The position numbers and the translations under genes are program-made. Below are positions 29,642 through 53,553 of a DNA stretch of 64,000 bases, one piece after another. The stretch is from a virus: IMG/VR virus record IMGVR_UViG_3300022602_000001; one strand, 5' to 3'. The first letter of the stretch is position 1, and each line of letters opens with the position of its first letter. The notes below the pieces were generated by a model, which was not told where the DNA came from, searched no databases, and was given only the letters and a program-made list of their open reading frames with translations.

Positions 29642-30059
29642 AAAGTTACATATGCTAAAGACCAGAAAAGTCCAGAGAAAAATTTCAATGGAAAATTTGT
29701 TCATGAAGTTGGCAATAGATCCCAGACCAAACAATGTTAGGCTGATTGATTTTCCCCTAAAGGTGAAGACTCCCCACGGCTACAAACAAATAGTCAATTT
29801 GTTCACCACTGAAAAACAAAAGAGGGTCACAACCTACTTCTCAAATGGAAAAACTCTGACCAGTTCAAACCAGCACTTGCTAAAAGTGGGAGAGGAGTGG
29901 AAAAAAGTCGAAGAGCTGCACAAGGGAGACTATGTGACAACAGAAAAGGGAACAACAAAAATAACAAAAAAAGTGCACCTCAAGAATGACAAAGTCCTCT
30001 ACGACATGTCCGTTGACGAGGTCCACTGTTATTATTCAAACGGGTTGCTCTCGCACAAC
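29456..30059 (+). mobile_element. Atypically split mini-intein (IntN 61 aa, IntC 136 aa) in the helicase Walker A motif
   Basis: Cys1; block B-like LTSSNQHLL; block F VLYDMSV; terminal SHN followed by Ser+1. Confidence 0.88.
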
Positions 30060-30830
30060 TCCTGGTGTTTGATAAATTTGGGAGCAGCAGCAGTTAAGGC
30101 GGGATACACGGTCTGCCACTACACTCTTGAACTGTCGGAGGACTACGTTGGAAAGAGGTATGACGCCATATTTACGGGAATTGATGCTCAGCAGATACAC
30201 CTACACAAGGACAAGGTGGCCGAAGCAATAGAAAAGCTTCCCGGAAAGCTGATCATAAAAGAGTACCCCATGGGAAAGGTTGGACCAAACACCATTGAGT
30301 CCCACATTCAGAAGTGCAGAGACCTCAAGCACCCTCCCAATCTCGTTATAATAGACTACGTGGACCTTTTGAAGAGCAAAACAAGGTCCATAGATCCAAA
30401 GGACGCCATAGATGACGTGTACACTGCGGTGAAGGGGCTGGCAAGAGAGCTAAAAATACCAATATGGACCGTTTCCCAGGTTAATCGCATGGGTTCTAAG
30501 GACGATGTTATTGAGGGAGACAAGGCTGCAGGATCCTACAACAAGATGATGATCGCGGACTTTGCCATGTCTTTGTCAAGAAAACGTCAGGACAAGGTGA
30601 ACGGCACTGGCAGGATCCACATAATGAAGAACAGGTACGGTGGAGATGGAATGACGTACGGTGCAAGAGTAAACACTCATAACGGATCGATTGAAATAAA
30701 CAGCGAAGAAATTGGAGATGAAGATTTAACATTTGACACTGGCCAAAAACAGCCCTTTCAGGGAAAAACAATGTTCACCCTGGACGAGAAGAGCTACCTG
30801 AACAAAAAATTCACAGAGCTGATTGGCTAG
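29652..30830 (+). CDS. Split-intein C-fragment fused to C-terminal half of DnaB-like helicase
   Basis: ...GLLSHN|SWCLINLG, then HYTLELSE, IIDYVDLL, WTVSQVNR, KNRYG helicase motifs. Confidence 0.9.
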   Translation: MLKTRKVQRKISMENLFMKLAIDPRPNNVRLIDFPLKVKTPHGYKQIVNLFTTEKQKRVTTYFSNGKTLTSSNQHLLKVGEEWKKVEELHKGDYVTTEKGTTKITKKVHLKNDKVLYDMSVDEVHCYYSNGLLSHNSWCLINLGAAAVKAGYTVCHYTLELSEDYVGKRYDAIFTGIDAQQIHLHKDKVAEAIEKLPGKLIIKEYPMGKVGPNTIESHIQKCRDLKHPPNLVIIDYVDLLKSKTRSIDPKDAIDDVYTAVKGLARELKIPIWTVSQVNRMGSKDDVIEGDKAAGSYNKMMIADFAMSLSRKRQDKVNGTGRIHIMKNRYGGDGMTYGARVNTHNGSIEINSEEIGDEDLTFDTGQKQPFQGKTMFTLDEKSYLNKKFTELIG

Positions 30831-48786: not shown

Positions 48787-48859
48787 GGTGCTCAAGCTAA
48801 CTTGGTAGAAGCGTAAGTTTGAAAAACTTAAGGACTCGGGTCGAAACCGAGGAGCACCA
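48787..48859 (+). tRNA. tRNA-Phe(GAA)
   Basis: ggtgctc/gagcacc acceptor; taagt-ttGAAaa-actta anticodon arm. Confidence 0.85.
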
Positions 48860-48915
48860 CAAAAAAACAAACATGAAAAAAATAACAATGCATTAGGTAC
48901 CAAACCTAATGTAAA

Positions 48916-49098
48916 GTGAAAGTAAAAAAACTAAAAAATTCATCCTGCAGCAGAGAATACACAATAAGGATGAAGGGCTACAAAGTGTACTGTACAGTGT
49001 GCAACAGACGAGCAGGAGTGTTCAATGCATACTGTGGAAAGGAGAGCAAAAAACAAAACAGAAACTGGAAAAACTACAGAAAAACAAAATGGAAGTGA
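48916..49098 (+). CDS. Small basic protein with CxxC
   Basis: C-terminal RNWKNYRKTKWK motif typical of small phage proteins. Confidence 0.55.
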   Translation: MKVKKLKNSSCSREYTIRMKGYKVYCTVCNRRAGVFNAYCGKESKKQNRNWKNYRKTKWK

Positions 49099-49148
49099 AA
49101 AACTATAAACGAAAGCAGTAGGCTCCCCCTTGACAGAGGGAGCAGAAC

Positions 49149-49222
49149 TCCCTCTTAACTCAGCGGTCAGAGTACTATACTTTTAATATAGGAGTCGCTC
49201 GGTTCAAATCCGGCAGGGGAAC
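49149..49222 (+). tRNA. tRNA-Lys(TTT)
   Basis: ctata-ctTTTaa-tatag anticodon arm; ggttcaaatcc T-arm; imperfect acceptor. Confidence 0.8.
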
Positions 49223-49256
49223 ACAGTTGATCTTTGACATAACAAAACCAAGAAAC

Positions 49257-49328
49257 ACGTCTTAGCATAAGAAATGCAGCAGGCCTCCAAAACCTTGCAT
49301 GGACAGAGTTTGATTCTCTGAAGACGTG
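49257..49328 (+). tRNA. tRNA-Trp(CCA)
   Basis: acgtctt/aagacgt acceptor; ctCCAaa loop; short D-arm. Confidence 0.75.
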
Positions 49329-49334
49329 CAGCAC

Positions 49335-49408
49335 GCTCTAGTAGCTCAATTGAAGAGAGCATTTGACTACGAATCAAAAGGTTGAACGTTTGAGTCGTTC
49401 CTAGAGCC
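49335..49408 (+). tRNA. tRNA-Arg(ACG)
   Basis: gctctag/ctagagc acceptor; tttga-ctACGaa-tcaaa. Confidence 0.88.
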
Positions 49409-49420
49409 AATTTTTTAAAT

Positions 49421-49493
49421 AGTCGAGTGGCCGAGAGGATTAAGGCACAGGGCTGCAAACCCTGCCACGTCAGTTTGACTCTGACCTCGACTT
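49421..49493 (+). tRNA. tRNA-Cys(GCA)
   Basis: agtcgag/ctcgact acceptor, U73; caggg-ctGCAaa-ccctg. Confidence 0.88.
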
Positions 49494-49549
49494 CTAAAAT
49501 AAATTTTTTTGTTTGATTGATTGTTTGTACATTTATCTGACTCTAATAT

Positions 49550-49622
49550 CTAGGTGTGGCCGAGTTGGTAAGGCACTAGCTTTGGGAGCTAGACCAAGCA
49601 GGATCGTCACCTGTCGCCTAGA
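49550..49622 (+). tRNA. tRNA-Pro(TGG)
   Basis: ctaggtg/cgcctag acceptor; ctagc-ttTGGga-gctag. Confidence 0.85.
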
Positions 49623-49630
49623 CAAAATTT

Positions 49631-49703
49631 GGGGATGAAGCTCTAGTGGATGAGCGTGTGCTTTGCAAGCACGATGGTGCGGTTTCGAGTACCGCCTTCT
49701 CCA
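49631..49703 (+). tRNA. tRNA-Ala(TGC)
   Basis: ggggatg/cttctcc acceptor with G3-U70; tgtgc-ttTGCaa-gcacg. Confidence 0.85.
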
Positions 49704-49708
49704 CCCTC

Positions 49709-49783
49709 GGGCGCTTCGCTTAGTTGGTTTTAAAGCCCTTGCCTTACAAGCAAGAGATCATTCGTTCGATTCGGAGCGCGGCA
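49709..49783 (+). tRNA. tRNA-Val(TAC), degenerate 3' acceptor (possible pseudo-tRNA)
   Basis: cttgc-ctTACaa-gcaag and ttcgatt T-loop present; acceptor pairs poorly. Confidence 0.55.
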
Positions 49784-49801
49784 ACAGTGCTTTTTGAAAA
49801 T

Positions 49802-49873
49802 TGCCTGATGGTGTAATGGTAAACATTCCAGATTTTGGATCTGGGGATTTTAGTTCGAGTCTAAATCGGGCAA
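49802..49873 (+). tRNA. tRNA-Gln(TTG)
   Basis: tgcctga/tcgggca acceptor; ccaga-ttTTGga-tctgg. Confidence 0.88.
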
Positions 49874-49875
49874 CT

Positions 49876-50226
49876 ATGGAAATCAAATTTTACAAAGAGA
49901 AAAACGACCTTTGGTACGTAGACCTTCCAGAGTACATAGAGTCGGGAGGCACAAAGGAGGACTGTCAAATGGTGGCAGGAGCGGACGACTGGTTGGACGT
50001 GTTGTCCCAGGGAGAAAGCAGGGTGGTTCTCGAAATCCAAACGGTCCCATTCGACGGAGCAAACTCCCTAACCATGGACGAGCTTCTAACAGATGCCTTT
50101 GGATACGGCGCCTACTACAAAGTGGAAAAGTACAACGGCGTGGACTATCCAGACCTTTCAATTTGGCTGTGCCCAGTGACAGTCTACGTGTTCGGAGAGT
50201 ATCCAAAGACAATCTACTACAGGTAG
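49876..50226 (+). CDS. DUF6717-like hypothetical protein
   Basis: WYVDLPEY, MVAGAD..LD, WLCPVT.YVFGEYPK.IY; start after tRNA-Gln. Confidence 0.75.
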   Translation: MEIKFYKEKNDLWYVDLPEYIESGGTKEDCQMVAGADDWLDVLSQGESRVVLEIQTVPFDGANSLTMDELLTDAFGYGAYYKVEKYNGVDYPDLSIWLCPVTVYVFGEYPKTIYYR

Positions 50227-50231
50227 TTATT

Positions 50232-50315
50232 GGAAGAGTAATTCTAGCGGCCTAGAATCCAGTCTTGAAAACTGTGAGTGCCTCAGGGCATGGGGATCGA
50301 CACCTCACTTTTCCG
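50232..50315 (+). tRNA. tRNA-Ser(TGA)
   Basis: ggaagag/cttttcc acceptor, G73; ctTGAaa loop; long variable arm. Confidence 0.82.
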
Positions 50316-50317
50316 CT

Positions 50318-50388
50318 GGCCTAGAAGCTTTAAGGTGAAGCGCAAGTTTGTGGCACTTGAGAATCCGGATCGGTACCGGGCTTGGCCC
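50318..50388 (+). tRNA. tRNA-His(GTG)
   Basis: caagt-ttGTGgc-acttg; C discriminator. Confidence 0.8.
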
Positions 50389-50404
50389 CCCCCCCCACAG
50401 AAAT

Positions 50405-50491
50405 GGATGGTGAGCAGAGGGTTCTGCAGCTGGTTTGCTAAACCGGCGATCGTTCAAAAAGGCGGTTGAATTTCGATTATTCCGCCATCCG
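50405..50491 (+). tRNA. tRNA-Ser(GCT)
   Basis: ggatggt/gccatcc acceptor; ttGCTaa loop; long variable arm. Confidence 0.8.
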
Positions 50492-50506
50492 CTGAGTTTA
50501 AAAAAT

Positions 50507-50580
50507 GCTCATCTAGCTCAACTGGTTGGAGCACCCGCCTGATACGCGGGAGGTTGTTGGCTCGAATCCAACGATGAGCA
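50507..50580 (+). tRNA. tRNA-Ile(GAT)
   Basis: gctcatc/gatgagc acceptor; cccgc-ctGATac-gcggg. Confidence 0.88.
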
Positions 50581-50627
50581 CAGGTCAGTTTGCTATTTCT
50601 GCGTGGAGTTAAAAAATAGCTGTTTTA

Positions 50628-50699
50628 GCCTTCGTCGTATAAAGGTCAGTACGAAAGACTGTTAATCTTTTTGTCCAAGTTCGAGTCTTGGCGAAGGCG
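50628..50699 (+). tRNA. tRNA-Asn(GTT)
   Basis: gccttcg/cgaaggc acceptor; aaaga-ctGTTaa-tcttt. Confidence 0.9.
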
Positions 50700-50868
50700 C
50701 TAAAAATAAAATGTGAAGACTAAAAAAATAAACTTTTTTCATTCATCCGCATTGTATACTTTTACTCTATAATAGCAACTAATAGATCTTTGAAAATAAA
50801 GACAATAAACTTACACGTAAGGGATTGTGAGCCAGCCGAAAGGTTGCAATTACTCACTTTCCCAGGAA

Positions 50869-50986
50869 ATTTTGATGAATAGCAAGGACCAGCGTTACTT
50901 CGCGTGCATGGTGCACAATTTTTATGTTAAAAAAATACAGAGGTTCAATTCCTCCTGAAACGCTACCAATTTTCTTTCATCTAAAT
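50869..50986 (+). ncRNA. Y-RNA-like scaffold copy 1 with tRNA-like arms
   Basis: gatgaa-T-ag/ct-ttcatc bulged stem and agcgtt/aacgct inner stem enclosing a hairpin, a 7-nt-loop hairpin (atGTTaa) and a T-arm (gagg-ttcaatt-cctc). Confidence 0.65.
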
Positions 50987-50987
50987 C

Positions 50988-51060
50988 GTTCCCGTCGTCT
51001 AATGGTCAGGACAGCCCCCTTTCACGGGGCAAATTTCGGTTCGAGTCCGTGCGTGGAACA
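50988..51060 (+). tRNA. tRNA-Glu(TTC)
   Basis: gcccc-ctTTCac-ggggc; ggttcgagtcc T-arm. Confidence 0.85.
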
Positions 51061-51069
51061 CAAAAATTC

Positions 51070-51143
51070 GGAGTAGTGGTTGAATGGTTTACAACACCGG
51101 CTTGTCGCGCCGTGAGGTGGGGGTTCGAGTCCCCCTTATTCCG
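51070..51143 (+). tRNA. tRNA-Asp(GTC)
   Basis: ggagtag/ttattcc acceptor, G73; ttGTCgc loop. Confidence 0.85.
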
Positions 51144-51160
51144 CCTTGACTTTTTTAAAC

Positions 51161-51237
51161 GTATTCGTATAGGCTCTGTCTCATAAACAGTTGAAACCTT
51201 AACAGGTTACATGAGAGTTCGATTCTCTCCGAATACA
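51161..51237 (+). tRNA. D-armless tRNA-like RNA, anticodon CAT, long variable arm
   Basis: gtattcg/cgaatac acceptor; only 7 nt where the D-arm belongs; ctgt-ctCATaa-acag; gagag-ttcgatt-ctctc. Confidence 0.7.
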
Positions 51238-51262
51238 CTCTGGACTTTTTGAAATAAAGACA

Positions 51263-51397
51263 TTAGTCATAGTAATAGAAAGCGTTTCATCGTGTGGGTT
51301 CGATTCCCATTTTTTGCGACTGCAAAAATAGCCAAATGGTTAAGGCACCAAATTCGTAATTTGTAAAACAAACACGCTCCTAAAATTTCTTGACTAA
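51263..51397 (+). ncRNA. Y-RNA-like scaffold copy 2 containing a circularly permuted tRNA (anticodon CGT)
   Basis: T-arm, loop-closed acceptor stem, D-arm and anticodon arm in that order, inside a ttagtca-T-ag/ct-tgactaa stem. Confidence 0.8.
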
Positions 51398-51410
51398 ATT
51401 ATTTGATCAC

Positions 51411-51483
51411 AGCTGGTGGGAGGTAAGGTATCTCGTTGGTCTCATAAGCCAAAATAACCCCGTTCGATTCGGGGACGCAGCAA
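51411..51483 (+). tRNA. tRNA-Met(CAT), initiator-like
   Basis: ttggt-ctCATaa-gccaa; ccccg-ttcgatt-cgggg; mismatched first acceptor pair. Confidence 0.72.
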
Positions 51484-51502
51484 CTAAAGTGAAGTAAAGT
51501 AC

Positions 51503-51757
51503 AATCTAGAGCAGCAGTACCCATAGGGCAACATTGCGTACCCCTGAATTGACAGGCCGTTTATTGAAACAGATAAGCGTGGTGGGATTTCTACCTGCGA
51601 ATGGCCAGTCGCTACTACTGGTGTCTGAGTGGGTGTAATTAACCTTTCCTCCCGAAGTGGGAGGCTTACTGTACGTGCTGGTACAGACAGGGATAATACC
51701 TTGATGGAAGGAGCCGGTTAATTACCGTATTACCGTAGCAGGCTGCTGCTCTAGATT
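51503..51757 (+). ncRNA. Unidentified 255-nt structured ncRNA
   Basis: Perfect 15-bp terminal stem aatctagagcagcag/ctgctgctctagatt; internal 10-bp stem and multiple hairpins; flanked by tRNAs. Confidence 0.75.
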
Positions 51758-51758
51758 T

Positions 51759-51830
51759 GGCGCCGTAGTTCAAAGGCAGAACATTTGGCTCATATCCAAA
51801 AGGTTGAGATCTCAGAATTCTCCGGCGCCA
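51759..51830 (+). tRNA. tRNA-Met/Ile2(CAT)
   Basis: ggcgccg/cggcgcc acceptor; tttgg-ctCATat-ccaaa; atypical T-loop. Confidence 0.8.
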
Positions 51831-51956
51831 CGAAGAGCATGAAGGCCACATGATCGTAGATCCTCTCAGCCTCTCAACGATGCACACTGTAGAGCCAGAC
51901 CGTAGGCTGGATGAGTTGACAACTTACTCACTGACTTTAGAAAAGTTGTAAATTTT

Positions 51957-52029
51957 GCCTGAATAACTCAATTGGTAGAGTATCTCATTTGTAATGAGAA
52001 GGTTGCGGATTCGATTTCTGCTTCAGGCT
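51957..52029 (+). tRNA. tRNA-Thr(TGT)
   Basis: gcctgaa/ttcaggc acceptor; tctca-ttTGTaa-tgaga. Confidence 0.9.
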
Positions 52030-52057
52030 CAAAAATAGCAGCATTGCTGCTTTTCAT

Positions 52058-52132
52058 GCGACAGTCGTATAATGGTCATTACTCCATCCTTCCAAGTTGG
52101 AGATGAAGGTTCGATTCCTTTCTGTCGCTCCA
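52058..52132 (+). tRNA. tRNA-Gly(TCC)
   Basis: gcgacag/ctgtcgc acceptor with encoded tCCA; ctTCCaa loop. Confidence 0.9.
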
Positions 52133-52158
52133 GTGGACTTTTTTGAAATTGGTCAATT

Positions 52159-52232
52159 GATCCCATAGCTCAACTGAACAGAGCAATTGCCTTCTAAGCA
52201 ATAGGTTTCCAGTTTGAATCTGGATGGGATCA
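52159..52232 (+). tRNA. tRNA-Arg(TCT)
   Basis: gatccca/tgggatc acceptor; attgc-ctTCTaa-gcaat. Confidence 0.9.
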
Positions 52233-52247
52233 CTTTAAAAATGAAAC

Positions 52248-52574
52248 ATGACAGCAAGAGAGTTGAAGGACCACATTCTAAATTACATGACGGCAGAGGA
52301 GGCTCTTGAGAGGCTCATTGCGTCCACTGTGAAAAATTTAAACGAAGAAGAGGAAAGTTCCCATGAAAGAATCTACCTCGAGGAGGACCAGGAATCTGAA
52401 TTAGACGAGACAGACACCGAATTGCCCAACTACAATTCTCCCTACTTTGAAATAATTACTGCAGCAAAGAAGCTGGGCTGGGACATAGCGATTCAAGGGG
52501 ACAAGGACTTTGTGAGAGGGATATCGATAGGCACGGCTGAGTACTTGGACGAGAACATAAAACATACAACATGA
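52248..52574 (+). CDS. Acidic hypothetical protein
   Basis: 108-aa ORF inside the tRNA island. Confidence 0.65.
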   Translation: MTARELKDHILNYMTAEEALERLIASTVKNLNEEEESSHERIYLEEDQESELDETDTELPNYNSPYFEIITAAKKLGWDIAIQGDKDFVRGISIGTAEYLDENIKHTT

Positions 52575-52780
52575 TAATTTTATTCGTTTACCACATAATC
52601 GCTGTTGCGTATTGCATGTGGAGAATTCTAAAGAGGTACAAGAAGTCCTCCTTGGACGGAGTCATAGGAACCAGCCCTGGGTTGGACACCTTGGCGGTGG
52701 TTTTTTTGGCGCCGCTGCTGATGCCCCTGGATCTTCTGATCACTCTGGCAGGGCTCAAAAAGAAGAAGGAGTCCGCATAA
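52571..52780 (+). CDS. Small two-TM membrane protein
   Basis: Two hydrophobic stretches; ATGA overlap with the upstream gene. Confidence 0.65.
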   Translation: MIILFVYHIIAVAYCMWRILKRYKKSSLDGVIGTSPGLDTLAVVFLAPLLMPLDLLITLAGLKKKKESA

Positions 52781-52792
52781 ACTTTTTAAAAA

Positions 52793-52921
52793 CTGGCGGG
52801 TGGTGAAAAGCTACATGGTGGCTGGGTAAACACACCTCATAGTCTCTGAGGCGCGGAACAGGAAATAGATTGCAATTGCCGTTGAATCCCCGCTTGTTGG
52901 TTCAAGCCCAACCTCGCCAGC
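52793..52921 (+). ncRNA. Oversized tRNA-like RNA (8-bp acceptor, expanded D-loop and variable arm)
   Basis: ctggcggg/ctcgccag; cctca-tagtctc-tgagg; gttgg-ttcaagc-ccaac. Confidence 0.7.
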
Positions 52922-52924
52922 GAC

Positions 52925-52999
52925 GCTCTTGTAGCCCAATTGGAAGGAGGCAACAGACTTAGGATCTGTGCAGTATCAGTTTGAATTTGATCATGAGCA
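52925..52999 (+). tRNA. tRNA-Leu(TAG) with short variable loop
   Basis: gctcttg/catgagc acceptor, A73; acaga-ctTAGga-tctgt; 5-nt variable region. Confidence 0.82.
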
Positions 53000-53091
53000 C
53001 TGAACTTTTTAAGCCACAACAAAAAACAATTCTCTAAAATTCAACATGGAGCAAGTCGTGCCTTTATATTTATTCTAAAAAGCTTTGTCTC

Positions 53092-53553
53092 ATGGATAGA
53101 ACATTTAAAACACTGAGCAACAGCGCAGTTGTGGATTTGGTGCCCTACACAAAGCAGTACATTGAAAATTTTCCCGATACTGAAATACTAATAGGGTGCG
53201 ACTCTCAAAACAGAAAAACTGAGACCGTCTATGCAATAGTTGTTGGATTTTACAAGCCAGGAAAGGGCGCGCATGTGGTGTACTCAAGATTCAAAAATCA
53301 AAGAGAGAAGGACAACGTGGGAAGGCTTTTGAACGAGGTGTGGAACTCAGTTCAGGTTGCTGAAGTTTTAAAAAATGAAGTTGGAATCCACACAAAGTGG
53401 ATAGACATAGACCTAAATCCCGACCCCAAGTACAAGTCGAACGCGGCGCTGTCCAGCGCAGTGGGAATAGTAACAGGAATGGGGTACAACGTCAGGCACA
53501 AGGGCAATTCTCCAATAATGACGTACGCAGCAGACTCTCTCGTAAAATTTTAA
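53092..53553 (+). CDS. RNase H-like YkuK-family protein
   Basis: IGCDSQ, RLLNEVW.S, IDIDLN, YAAD motifs. Confidence 0.8.
   Translation: MDRTFKTLSNSAVVDLVPYTKQYIENFPDTEILIGCDSQNRKTETVYAIVVGFYKPGKGAHVVYSRFKNQREKDNVGRLLNEVWNSVQVAEVLKNEVGIHTKWIDIDLNPDPKYKSNAALSSAVGIVTGMGYNVRHKGNSPIMTYAADSLVKF

What the first reader, a model, noticed from the sequence alone, without database searches (positions are those of the whole stretch)
50869..50986. Y-RNA-like scaffold copy 1: same frame, different tRNA-mimic cargo
Seen: shares with 51263-51397 the frame [stem]-A-T(bulge)-AG-YAA-...-AGCGTT-WCWTC-[cargo]-ACGCT-...-AATTT-CT-T-[stem]. Outer stems differ in sequence yet still pair (gatgaa/ttcatc versus ttagtca/tgactaa), i.e. 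covariation between copies. The cargo here is in normal tRNA order: hairpin gtgca/tgcac, anticodon-like arm attttt-atGTTaa-aaaaat and T-arm gagg-ttcaatt-cctc, with the scaffold replacing the acceptor stem. Inference: a modular ncRNA family with a constant protein-binding handle, plausibly for Ro60/TROVE, and interchangeable tRNA mimics.
Basis: partly seen in the sequence, partly recalled or inferred. Interest (0 to 1): 0.78.

Follow-up and report, generated by a model that had tools for sequence, protein, structure and literature searches.

The report
Phage Ro60-partner RNA with tRNA mimic
This ~110-base phage RNA belongs to a widespread, uncatalogued RNA family that joins one conserved base-paired "handle" to interchangeable tRNA-shaped inserts and sits beside genes for the ring-shaped RNA-binding protein Ro60 in many phages, so it is most likely a new branch of the Y RNAs, although this phage shows no Ro60 gene in the 64 kb available.

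Summary
Window 50873-50982 (copy 1) and 51263-51397 (copy 2) share a frame. It runs: covarying outer stem, bulged U plus AGYAA/UUUCU helix, internal loop, covarying inner stem, ACUUCG-type junction, then cargo.

A covariance model trained without any copy-1-type sequence finds exactly these two sites in the window (38.9 and 72.9 bits). It also finds about 50 distinct relatives in about 17 phage lineages. Covariation is strong.

Copy 1 carries a tRNA-shaped body in normal order. Its anticodon loop is not conserved and its D arm is replaced, so it is not a decoding tRNA. Copy 2 carries a circularly permuted tRNA-Thr(CGU)-like body.

The Ro60 idea is supported at family level:
- 18 of 21 handle-bearing contigs encode a Ro60/TROVE homologue, against 0 of 14 control contigs.
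- 67 of 80 phage TROVE loci have a handle RNA within 5 kb.
- All 181 of those hits lie on the TROVE strand.

The window itself has no TROVE gene, and the slot that holds it in relatives is empty.

The RNAs do not match Rfam YrlA and lack its GNCGAA motif. I read them as a new variant of a known kind (Y RNA/YrlA). Other agents of this scan noted the same handle on other DNA.

The parts
50874..50879 (+). Copy 1, outer stem 5' strand (GAUGAA)
   Evidence: Pairs with 50976-50981 in the MFE fold and in the alignment consensus. Across the family this stem shows all four Watson-Crick pair types per column.
50880..50885 (+). Copy 1, conserved handle 5' strand U(bulge)-AG-CAA (family consensus UAGUAA)
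   Evidence: Nearly invariant in the family. The AG/CU pairs covary to GG/CC in 5 distinct members (pair 9/177).
50886..50890 (+). Copy 1, 5' side of the internal loop (GGACC). GG pairs with CC 50966-50967 in copy-1 orthologues.
   Evidence: fold_alignment pairs 14/97 and 15/96, invariant in 8 sequences.
50891..50896 (+). Copy 1, inner stem 5' strand (AGCGUU). It takes the place of a tRNA acceptor stem.
   Evidence: Pairs with 50959-50964. Orthologues L104 and L105 have ACAGUU/AACUGU. The family inner stem covaries.
50897..50903 (+). Conserved junction ACUUCG(C)
   Evidence: W-C-W-UCG follows the inner stem in nearly every family member listed.
50904..50916 (+). Cargo hairpin 1 (GUGCA-UGG-UGCAC), in the D-arm position
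   Evidence: Three of its five pairs change on both sides among orthologues.
50918..50936 (+). Cargo hairpin 2, an anticodon-like arm (6 bp, loop AUGUUAA)
   Evidence: The stem covaries. The loop is not conserved: AUGUUAA here, UUUGGAU or UUUGGCU in the L001-L004 lineage, and 8-9-nt loops in L005 and L107.
50940..50954 (+). Cargo T arm (GAGG-UUCAAUU-CCUC)
   Evidence: T-loop consensus. The stem covaries to GCGG/CCGC and CCGG/CCGG.
50955..50964 (+). CUGA linker and inner stem 3' strand (AACGCU)
50965..50975 (+). 3' side of the internal loop and conserved handle 3' strand (ACCAA-UUUUCU)
   Evidence: Family consensus UUUCU lies just before the outer stem.
50976..50981 (+). Copy 1, outer stem 3' strand (UUCAUC). 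tRNA-Glu starts 6-7 nt later, at 50988.
51263..51397 (+). Copy 2, the same handle around a circularly permuted tRNA body. Outer stem 51263-51269/51391-51397. UAGUAA 51270-51275. Inner stem 51281-51285/51374-51378. UUUCU 51386-51390. Cargo order: T arm, acceptor hairpin UUUUUGC-GACU-GCAAAAA, D arm, anticodon arm with CGU.
   Evidence: R1 34.7 bits, R2 72.9 bits. ARAGORN calls tRNA-Thr(cgt) once the cargo is circularised. The orthologue L005 10254-10393 has compensatory changes in both stems and anticodon UGU.
53092..53553 (+). YkuK-type RNase H-like gene (PF04308) just after the tRNA island, a frequent neighbour of the system in relatives
   Evidence: PF04308 is present in 13 of 21 handle-bearing contigs and 0 of 13 control contigs. 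In L004 it lies about 0.8 kb downstream of the TROVE gene.

Best explanation
Copy 1 (50873-50982) is a stable non-coding RNA of a phage 'handle RNA' family that partners phage Ro60 (TROVE) proteins. It is a Y-RNA-like molecule.

Inferred steps:
1. It is transcribed with the tRNA array.
2. It is freed by the enzymes that trim the flanking tRNAs. tRNA-Glu starts 6-7 nt after its 3' stem.
3. Its two ends pair into the outer stem.

The sequence-conserved bulged helix (U-bulge, AGYAA/UUUCU), set between two covarying stems, is the likely protein-binding site. Shown: this handle travels with Ro60 genes, on the same strand and mostly within 3 kb. Inferred: Ro60 binds it.

The insert is a tRNA-shaped module (D-position hairpin, variable A/U-rich anticodon-like hairpin, canonical T arm). 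It is selected for shape and not for decoding. It most likely presents a tRNA-like elbow to tRNA-recognising proteins, acting as a tether or decoy. This is how bacterial Y RNAs tether Ro60 to PNPase and are handled by tRNA enzymes.

Copy 2 puts a complete, circularly permuted tRNA-Thr-like body on the same handle. In this phage the Ro60 partner would have to be encoded outside the 64-kb window or supplied by the host.
For: Family and structure:
- R1/R2 hits occur only in handle contigs, with none below E 0.3 in about 20 control loci.
- 15 of 17 handle pairs show double changes. 87% of cells are paired, against 66% in shuffles (0 of 500 shuffles reach it) and 42-53% when partners are slid.
- The copy-1 cargo has 12 compensatory pairs among 28.

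Ro60 link:
- A TROVE ORF of 513 aa lies 0.55-1.4 kb downstream of the copy-1 orthologue and its sister handle RNAs in L001-L004.
- 13 of 16 further handle contigs are TROVE-positive by Pfam, and one more (G016) by tblastn. The 14 control contigs give none.
- Handle RNAs lie 0.2-2.7 kb upstream of TROVE, on the same strand, in most contigs where both were placed (G001-G004, G007, G012, G013, G015, G017, G019-G021).
- 67 of 80 TROVE loci carry handle RNAs, and all 181 hits are on the TROVE strand.
- The handle also sits directly upstream of TROVE genes only 27% identical, in Lachnospiraceae genomes.
- The protein is a full-length homologue of Thermus phage phiLo Ro60 (9KOP/9L5Y, E 1e-18) and of Xenopus Ro60.

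Not a decoding tRNA:
- ARAGORN makes no call and Rfam tRNA gives no hit at E 10.
- The anticodon loop differs between orthologues.

Precedent:
- Bacterial and phage Y RNAs carry tRNA-like domains and lie within 4 kb of Ro60 on the same strand (PMC4201824).
- Deinococcus Yrn1 has its tRNA-like arms in the opposite order to YrlA, with an anticodon-like arm between them, much like copy 1 (PMC4201824, sections 6 and 10).
- phiLo Ro60 binds two phage-encoded Y-like RNAs and forms a complex with host PNPase (PMC12135203).
Against: - No TROVE homologue exists in the 64-kb window (tblastn; profile of 12 phage TROVEs, best E 4.5; Pfam on all ORFs of 340 aa or more).
- The slot between tRNA-Leu(UAG) and the YkuK gene, which holds TROVE in relatives, is only 91 nt here.
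- The handle lacks the GNCGAA(N)G motif proposed for Rsr binding and does not match Rfam YrlA or Y_RNA.
- Binding, RNA ends and RNA abundance are untested.
- Some family members carry complete, canonical tRNAs (Rfam tRNA 57-62 bits, one with an encoded CCA). The handle could therefore serve tRNA handling and not mimicry.
Confidence: 0.6

Rival explanations
1. The handle is a processing or storage tag for real tRNAs. The inserts are, or recently were, functional tRNAs. Normal-order ones are cut out by RNase P and 3' trimming. Permuted ones such as copy 2 are opened at the acceptor loop, and either work as two-piece tRNAs held together by the handle or are re-joined by a ligase. Ro60 would act as chaperone or gatekeeper for these precursors.
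For: - ARAGORN reads 17 handle inserts as normal tRNAs. It reads 13 as tRNAs once the insert is circularised, with canonical 7-nt anticodon loops and many anticodons.
- L035 1791-1862 and L062 75-145 are full tRNAs inside handles (57.7 and 62.1 bits). The L062 one has an encoded CCA and a UCA anticodon.
- The G of the conserved UCG is the +1 base in these full tRNAs.
- Copy 2 and its L005 orthologue both keep a Thr anticodon (CGU, UGU) while their stems covary.
- The L057 permuted insert has GCCA after its acceptor 3' strand.
Against: - For copy 1 the anticodon loop is not conserved (GUU, UGG, and 8-9-nt loops), and the D arm is a 5-bp hairpin with a 3-nt loop.
- In copy 1, 7 nt separate the acceptor-position stem from that hairpin and 4 nt lie between the T arm and the stem.
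- 22 members have no tRNA-like insert at all.
- No RtcB was found in the window or in five related contigs. Other ligase families and a splicing endonuclease were not specifically searched for.
- Bacteria are not known to mature permuted tRNAs (established knowledge, not tested here).
Confidence: 0.17
2. The handle binds a different partner, and the link with Ro60 is only shared residence in a phage tRNA/RNA-repair island. Candidates are the YkuK-type RNase H-like protein that the window retains, the cREC-domain protein, or a host factor.
For: - The window keeps the handle RNAs and the YkuK gene but has no TROVE.
- PF04308 is found in 13 of 21 handle contigs and 0 of 13 controls.
- A cREC_REC gene lies between TROVE and YkuK in L004.
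Against: - YkuK is absent from the complete 175-kb genome G007, which has TROVE directly flanked by handle RNAs. In G012 and G013 it lies about 35 kb away on the other strand.
- The handle follows TROVE genes down to 27% identity in unrelated genomic settings. That is hard to explain by island residence alone.
Confidence: 0.13
3. Copy 1 is a decaying tRNA duplicate with a chance leader-trailer pairing and has no function of its own.
For: - It lies in a tRNA array.
- ARAGORN calls its L002-L004 orthologue tRNA-Pro(tgg).
- The folding z-score is only -1.2.
Against: - Compensatory changes occur in every helix across at least four lineages.
- The handle is conserved in about 17 phage lineages and in bacterial contigs.
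- The element is detected by a model that never saw a copy-1-type sequence.
Confidence: 0.03
4. It is an ordinary member of the described YrlA family (Rfam RF02553).
For: Copy 2 has the T arm, capped acceptor stem and D arm order of YrlA. The family sits beside Ro60 genes as YrlA does (PMC4201824).
Against: - There is no RF02553 hit at E 10 on the two elements, nor at E 1 on 45 kb of relatives.
- In five related phage records the best RF02553 score is 24 bits, against a cut-off of 69. The highest-scoring partial matches fall on positions ARAGORN calls as tRNA genes, and 13 of 14 control genomes give sub-threshold hits too.
- No GNCGAA(N)G motif lies on the 5' strand.
- Copy 1 is in normal tRNA order, and the handle joins at the acceptor position (copy 1) or at the variable loop (copy 2), not at the anticodon stem.
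Confidence: 0.05

Closest known systems
YrlA, the bacterial and mycobacteriophage Y RNA with a tRNA-like domain (Rfam RF02553; Chen et al. 2014, PMC4201824; structure preprint 10.1101/312249)
   Same: - A small RNA whose 5' and 3' ends pair into a long stem that carries a protein-binding site.
- A tRNA-like module with a canonical T loop.
- Encoded on the same strand within a few kb of a Ro60/TROVE gene, often several per locus, and present in phages.
- Copy 2 shares the T arm, capped acceptor stem and D arm order.
   Different: - No match to the RF02553 model.
- No GNCGAA(N)G motif. The conserved element is a U-bulged AGUAA/UUUCU helix plus an ACUUCG junction.
- The stem joins the tRNA body at the acceptor end (copy 1) or at the variable loop (copy 2), not in place of the anticodon stem.
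- Copy 2 keeps a full anticodon arm.
- The same handle also occurs with no insert or with complete tRNAs.
Deinococcus radiodurans Yrn1 (Y RNA that tethers Rsr to PNPase; PMC4201824)
   Same: Its tRNA-like features run in the opposite order to YrlA relative to the RNA's 5' end, with an anticodon-like arm between the D-like and T-like arms. That is much like copy 1. The D element is reduced.
   Different: No sequence relationship was detected. Yrn1 carries the Rsr-binding motif related to GGUCCGA. PNPase tethering is shown for Yrn1 and only inferred here.
Thermus phage phiLo Ro60 with Yrl1/Yrl2 (PMC12135203; PDB 9KOP, 9L5Y)
   Same: The Ro60 of the relatives of this phage is a full-length homologue (E 1e-18). 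The phage encodes its own Y-like RNAs upstream of the Ro60 gene.
   Different: Yrl1 and Yrl2 were picked by a CGAA motif in a large internal bulge and are not described as tRNA-shaped. The present handle has no such motif.
Circularly permuted tRNA genes of the red alga Cyanidioschyzon merolae (recalled from memory; reviewed in PMC3400036 and PMC4238349, neither read here)
   Same: Copy 2 has the 3' half of a tRNA ahead of the 5' half, with the acceptor ends joined by a short loop and leader and trailer paired.
   Different: Those precursors use a bulge-helix-bulge motif, the splicing endonuclease and a ligase, in a eukaryote. No such motif or enzymes were seen here. This comparison concerns copy 2, not copy 1.

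Membership tests
YrlA (Rfam RF02553) | Scores at or above the family's gathering threshold (69 bits) with the Rfam covariance model | tested here: not met
   No RF02553 hit at E up to 10 on window 50800-51410, or at E up to 1 on 45 kb of related loci. The best score in five related phage records is 24 bits. The highest-scoring partial matches fall on positions ARAGORN calls as tRNA genes, and sub-threshold hits also occur in 13 of 14 control genomes.
YrlA (Rfam RF02553) | GNCGAA(N0-1)G motif near the 5' end, the proposed Rsr contact (PMC4201824) | tested here: not met
   The 5' strand of copy 1 reads UGAUGAAUAGCAAGGACCAGCGUUACUUCG and copy 2 reads UUAGUCAUAGUAAUAGAAAGCGUUUCAUCG. Neither contains CGAA.
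YrlA (Rfam RF02553) | tRNA-like domain in the order (V)-T arm-capped acceptor stem-D arm, with the Ro60-binding stem in the place of the anticodon stem | tested here: not met
   Copy 1 is in the normal order (D-position hairpin, anticodon-like arm, T arm), with the handle in place of the acceptor stem. Copy 2 has the T-acceptor-D order but keeps an anticodon arm, and the handle leaves from the variable-loop position. Two relatives (L074 1497-1645, L089 3080-3241) do show the YrlA order, by my reading of the sequences.
Y RNA in the functional sense (partner of Ro60) | Encoded within about 4 kb of a Ro60/TROVE gene on the same strand (criterion of PMC4201824) | tested here: inconclusive
   Met for the family: 67 of 80 TROVE loci, 181 of 181 hits on the TROVE strand, and the copy-1 orthologue lies about 1.1 kb from TROVE in L004. 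Not met in this window: no TROVE in 64 kb.
Y RNA in the functional sense (partner of Ro60) | Binds Ro60 protein | not testable with these tools
   No RNA-protein binding or complex prediction tool was available. An EMSA or pull-down is needed.
tRNA (Rfam RF00005) | Cloverleaf recognised by tRNA models, with a conserved 7-nt anticodon loop of fixed identity | tested here: not met
   Copy 1 gets no ARAGORN call and no RF00005 hit at E 10. Its loop is AUGUUAA here, UUUGGAU or UUUGGCU in L001-L004, and 8-9 nt in L005 and L107. ARAGORN does call the L002-L004 orthologue tRNA-Pro, which shows how close the mimicry is.
Phage handle-RNA family defined here (models R1 and R2) | Covarying outer stem, U-bulged AGYAA/UUUCU helix, covarying inner stem and WCWUCG junction | tested here: met
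   Copy 1 scores 38.9 bits (E 4e-6) and copy 2 72.9 bits with R2, whose training set held no copy-1-type row. For covariation.

The most novel reading that the evidence does not exclude
The handle is a universal adaptor that loads whole tRNAs and tRNA look-alikes onto a phage Ro60 ring. The inserts can be in normal order, circularly permuted or absent. The phage thereby keeps a panel of anticodon-loop baits or spare tRNAs. These would absorb or report attack by host tRNA-cleaving defence nucleases. Alternatively, the permuted ones are matured into working tRNAs, which would be the first permuted tRNA genes in a bacterial virus.
Probability: 0.15. Interest if true: 0.85.

Novelty: new variant of a known kind. 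Interest (0 to 1): 0.62.

Why it matters
Ro60 and its Y RNAs are conserved from bacteria to humans, yet what the RNA's second module does is still debated. Here nature has run the swap experiment. One handle, apparently co-inherited with one Ro60 lineage, carries either nothing, tRNA shapes in two topologies, or complete tRNAs. These often stand side by side in one tRNA array.

That gives a defined and testable set of RNAs for two questions: what Ro60 recognises, and what the tRNA-like module recruits.

It also flags a large class of RNAs in big phages that tRNA finders either miss or miscall. ARAGORN labels one orthologue tRNA-Pro. The class is absent from Rfam.

The window adds a natural case in which the RNAs persist without a nearby Ro60 gene.

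Tried and rejected
- **Rfam scans.** Gathering and E-value thresholds on the window, the island, the two elements and 45 kb of relatives gave only tRNA, GOLLD and tmRNA. There were no Y_RNA or YrlA hits.
- **Nearby 701-aa ORF.** The search for related loci with this single ORF found no relatives. The ORF later proved to be a virion structural protein (phrog_1645), not a Ro60 substitute.
- **Pattern TCGCGTGCANGGTGCAC.** It gave 24 viral loci, but only L001-L005 were real. The rest were chance hits in GC-rich coding DNA and were reused as controls.
- **Pattern TAGTAANNNNNTGAGTTNCNTCG.** It gave 57 loci. My first filter (AACTCA downstream) was too strict and wrongly discarded true members, so a pairing-aware finder replaced it.
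- **RtcB.** No PF01139 match in the five closest contigs, and none in the 40 window ORFs scanned with Pfam.
- **Own genome.** None is held. The look-up of encoding contigs for a window protein returned only a 3.7-kb contig, so I could not look for Ro60 elsewhere in this phage.
- **GenBank phages.** No close relative of the island; the matches are short, mostly single-tRNA hits.
- **Known structural motifs.** Read by eye, the handle shows no hammerhead core, no bulge-helix-bulge and no obvious kink-turn consensus.
- **Integron attC-like hairpin.** Rejected, because the cargo lies inside the hairpin and the stems contain G-U pairs on this strand.
- **Literature.** Searches for permuted tRNAs in phages and for phage TROVE RNAs found no description of this handle.

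Full report
**Context.** The window is part of a large tailed phage. It encodes a tail sheath, family A DNA polymerase, ribonucleotide reductase, GroEL-like chaperonin, DnaB with an intein, and thymidylate synthase. All its long genes lie on the + strand. Positions 48787-53000 hold a tRNA array: 17 ARAGORN calls plus further Rfam tRNA hits. The finding lies between tRNA-Asn (50628-50700) and tRNA-Glu (50988-51059). Its sister, copy 2, lies between an odd tRNA-like gene (51161-51237) and another (51412-51482).

**Observation.** In copy 1 these are:
- the outer stem 50874-50879/50976-50981;
- a bulged U and an AG/CU step;
- an internal loop;
- the inner stem 50891-50896/50959-50964;
- three hairpins in tRNA order (50904-50916, 50918-50936, 50940-50954).

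Copy 2 (51263-51397) shares the frame with a different outer stem. The exact core AGCGTTNCNTCG occurs only at these two places in 64 kb. Folding energies alone are unremarkable (z -1.2 and -1.9), so the case rests on comparison.

**Relatives.** A frame-derived pattern found five IMG/VR contigs with orthologues of copy 1, each followed by tRNA-Glu or a Glu-like tRNA as in the window. One of them (L005) also has an orthologue of copy 2. In it both stems are changed by compensatory substitutions: outer UAACAG/CUGUUA and inner AGUCU/AGACU. Its anticodon is UGU, where the window has CGU.

The same contigs hold a third type, a 'mini' with the handle and only about 25-40 nt inside. A pattern for that type, plus a pairing-aware script, showed the frame in many other phage contigs, including records of 175-430 kb.

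**Models.** I built a covariance model from five minis (R1). I then rebuilt it from 38 of its hits (R2). None of those 38 was of copy-1 type.
- R2 finds copy 1 at 38.9 bits and copy 2 at 72.9 bits. Nothing else in the tRNA island exceeds 12 bits with filters off.
- It finds no hit below E 0.3 in about 20 unrelated control loci.

**Structure support.**
- On 36 distinct family members, 15 of the 17 handle pairs show changes on both sides.
- 87% of cells pair, against 66% in column shuffles (0 of 500 shuffles reach it) and 42-53% when the partners are slid.
- The nearly invariant AG/CU step switches to GG/CC in five members, so the sequence-conserved part is also a helix.
- For copy 1 itself, eight orthologues give 28 pairs. 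Twelve have compensatory changes and only one cell is broken, with covariation in every helix.
- The loop of the anticodon-like hairpin is not conserved (AUGUUAA; UUUGGAU or UUUGGCU; 8-9-nt loops). The T loop and the junctions ACUUCG and CUGA are conserved.

Copy 1 is therefore selected as a shape, not as a decoder. ARAGORN and the Rfam tRNA model do not call it, although ARAGORN calls one orthologue tRNA-Pro.

**Modularity.** Across about 84 script-detected members, which include a few false positives among the longest:
- ARAGORN reads 17 inserts as normal-order tRNAs.
- It reads 13 as tRNAs only after the insert is circularised. The window's copy 2 becomes tRNA-Thr(cgt).
- 22 are minis, and the rest are other shapes.

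By my reading of the sequences, two inserts (L074 1497-1645, L089 3080-3241) have the V-T-acceptor-D order of YrlA without an anticodon arm. Two others are complete tRNAs by the Rfam model (57.7 and 62.1 bits), one with an encoded CCA and a UCA anticodon.

**Partner.**
- PF05731 (TROVE) hits a 513-aa ORF in four of the five closest contigs. It lies inside the tRNA island, 0.55-1.4 kb downstream of the handle RNAs on the same strand.
- The protein aligns end to end with the Ro60 of Thermus phage phiLo (9KOP, E 1e-18) and weakly with Xenopus Ro60.
- Of 16 further handle-bearing contigs, 13 are TROVE-positive by Pfam and one more by tblastn. The three without it overall are fragments: 11 kb, 5.5 kb, and 53 kb at 17% estimated completeness. 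None of 14 control contigs of 43-145 kb has it.
- Contig coordinates put at least one handle RNA 0.2-2.7 kb upstream of TROVE on the same strand in most contigs where both were placed.

In the reverse direction, a profile of 11 of these proteins retrieved 145 relatives in IMG/VR. Of the 80 loci kept, 67 have a handle RNA within 5 kb at E below 0.01. All 181 hits are on the TROVE strand. Several of the 13 negatives have under 1.2 kb of upstream sequence. In genome assemblies the handle again sits directly upstream of TROVE genes, down to 27% identity in Lachnospiraceae.

This meets the criterion Chen et al. used to call Y RNAs: within 4 kb and on the same strand (PMC4201824).

**The window.** There is no TROVE here, by three tests:
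- tblastn with the L004 protein;
- a profile of 12 phage TROVEs against all ORFs of 60 aa or more (best E 4.5);
- Pfam on every ORF of 340 aa or more.

In relatives the order is tRNA-Leu(UAG), TROVE, handle RNA, tRNA-Leu(UAA), cREC-domain gene, YkuK-type RNase H-like gene. In the window tRNA-Leu(UAG) is followed after 91 nt by the YkuK gene. The genome outside the window could not be reached. The partner in this phage is therefore unknown: it could lie elsewhere in the genome, come from the host, or have been lost.

YkuK itself co-occurs with the handle (13 of 21 contigs against 0 of 13 controls) but less faithfully than TROVE. It is absent from one complete TROVE-plus-handle genome.

**Comparison with known families.** The architecture and the partnership are those of bacterial Y RNAs.
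- YrlA has a Ro60-binding stem plus a tRNA-like domain in the order V-T-acceptor-D.
- Deinococcus Yrn1 has its arms in the opposite order to YrlA, with an anticodon-like arm between them (PMC4201824).
- Copy 2 resembles the first and copy 1 the second.

Membership in YrlA fails each test I could run. There is no RF02553 hit, no GNCGAA(N)G motif, and a different junction between stem and tRNA body. Phage Ro60 with Y-like RNAs is itself known, from mycobacteriophages, CcrColossus, phage G and phiLo (PMC4201824, PMC12135203). [quoted passage not shown] I found no paper describing this handle or its swap of inserts.

Other agents of this scan have reported what appears to be the same handle beside Ro60 genes on other DNA. 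I reached the TROVE link before reading those notes, and my tests agree with them.

**Mechanism and confidence.**
- Shown: a conserved, covarying RNA structure; a modular insert; and tight, strand-specific linkage of the family to a Ro60 lineage.
- Inferred: release from the tRNA transcript by the tRNA-processing enzymes; binding of Ro60 to the U-bulged helix; and use of the tRNA-like module as a tether or decoy for tRNA-recognising proteins.

I put 0.6 on this reading for copy 1. The main rivals are a tRNA-precursor or storage tag (0.17) and a different protein partner (0.13).

**Verdict.** This is a real and well-supported RNA, a new variant of a known kind. Interest is moderately high because of the natural insert swapping and because the family is absent from Rfam and miscalled by tRNA finders.

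Noticed in passing
window 51503-51757: A stretch of about 255 nt between two CAU-anticodon tRNA-like genes is closed by a long perfect helix (AUCUAGAGCAGCAG / CUGCUGCUCUAGAU). It has no Rfam match at E up to 10. In three related contigs a GOLLD RNA lies near the handle RNAs, so this may be another large phage ncRNA.
   Followed up: no
L057 3190-3605, L035 769-1185, L080 451-938: GOLLD RNAs (Rfam RF02032; 288, 277 and 152 bits) lie in the same tRNA/handle-RNA islands, within a few hundred bases of handle RNAs.
   Followed up: no
L062 42-174 (minus strand): A complete tRNA sits inside a handle (Rfam tRNA 62.1 bits). It has anticodon loop AUUCAAA (UCA, which would read UGA) and an encoded CCA. 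The contig is a 316-kb phage record, so this may be a handle-tagged suppressor or recoding tRNA.
   Followed up: partly
window 51161-51237 and 51412-51482: Two weak tRNA hits (31.0 and 31.3 bits) flank copy 2. The first lacks a D arm and has a long variable arm with a CAU anticodon.
   Followed up: no
L004 4431-4937 (minus strand): A cREC_REC gene (PF20274, cyclic-phosphate processing receiver domain) lies between the TROVE gene and the YkuK RNase H-like gene in relatives. The window ORFs scanned with Pfam gave no PF20274 hit, although ORFs under 150 aa and several of 150-340 aa were not scanned.
   Followed up: partly
L004 4988-5153; L056 7113-7263; L067 7555-7702: Directly downstream of the TROVE gene there is a handle RNA with a 100-115-nt insert that has no tRNA features. 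It is conserved between lineages, so it is a further cargo class.
   Followed up: no
window 29652-30830: The DnaB-like helicase ORF carries HINT/intein hits (PF07591, PF14890), which suggests an intein.
   Followed up: no
L002 11956-12352; L004 8274-8670; L056 195-578: A phage-encoded tmRNA lies in the same tRNA islands of relatives. ARAGORN calls none in the window.
   Followed up: no
L194 4837-4968 (Lachnospiraceae bacterium A4 scaffold KE159560.1): A handle RNA lies directly upstream of a TROVE gene in an isolate genome. Here ACUUCG pairs with CGAAG after the T arm, giving a 5-bp acceptor-like stem. The 3' side reads GUCGAAGG, which fits the YrlA GNCGAA(N)G motif but in a different place.
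   Followed up: partly
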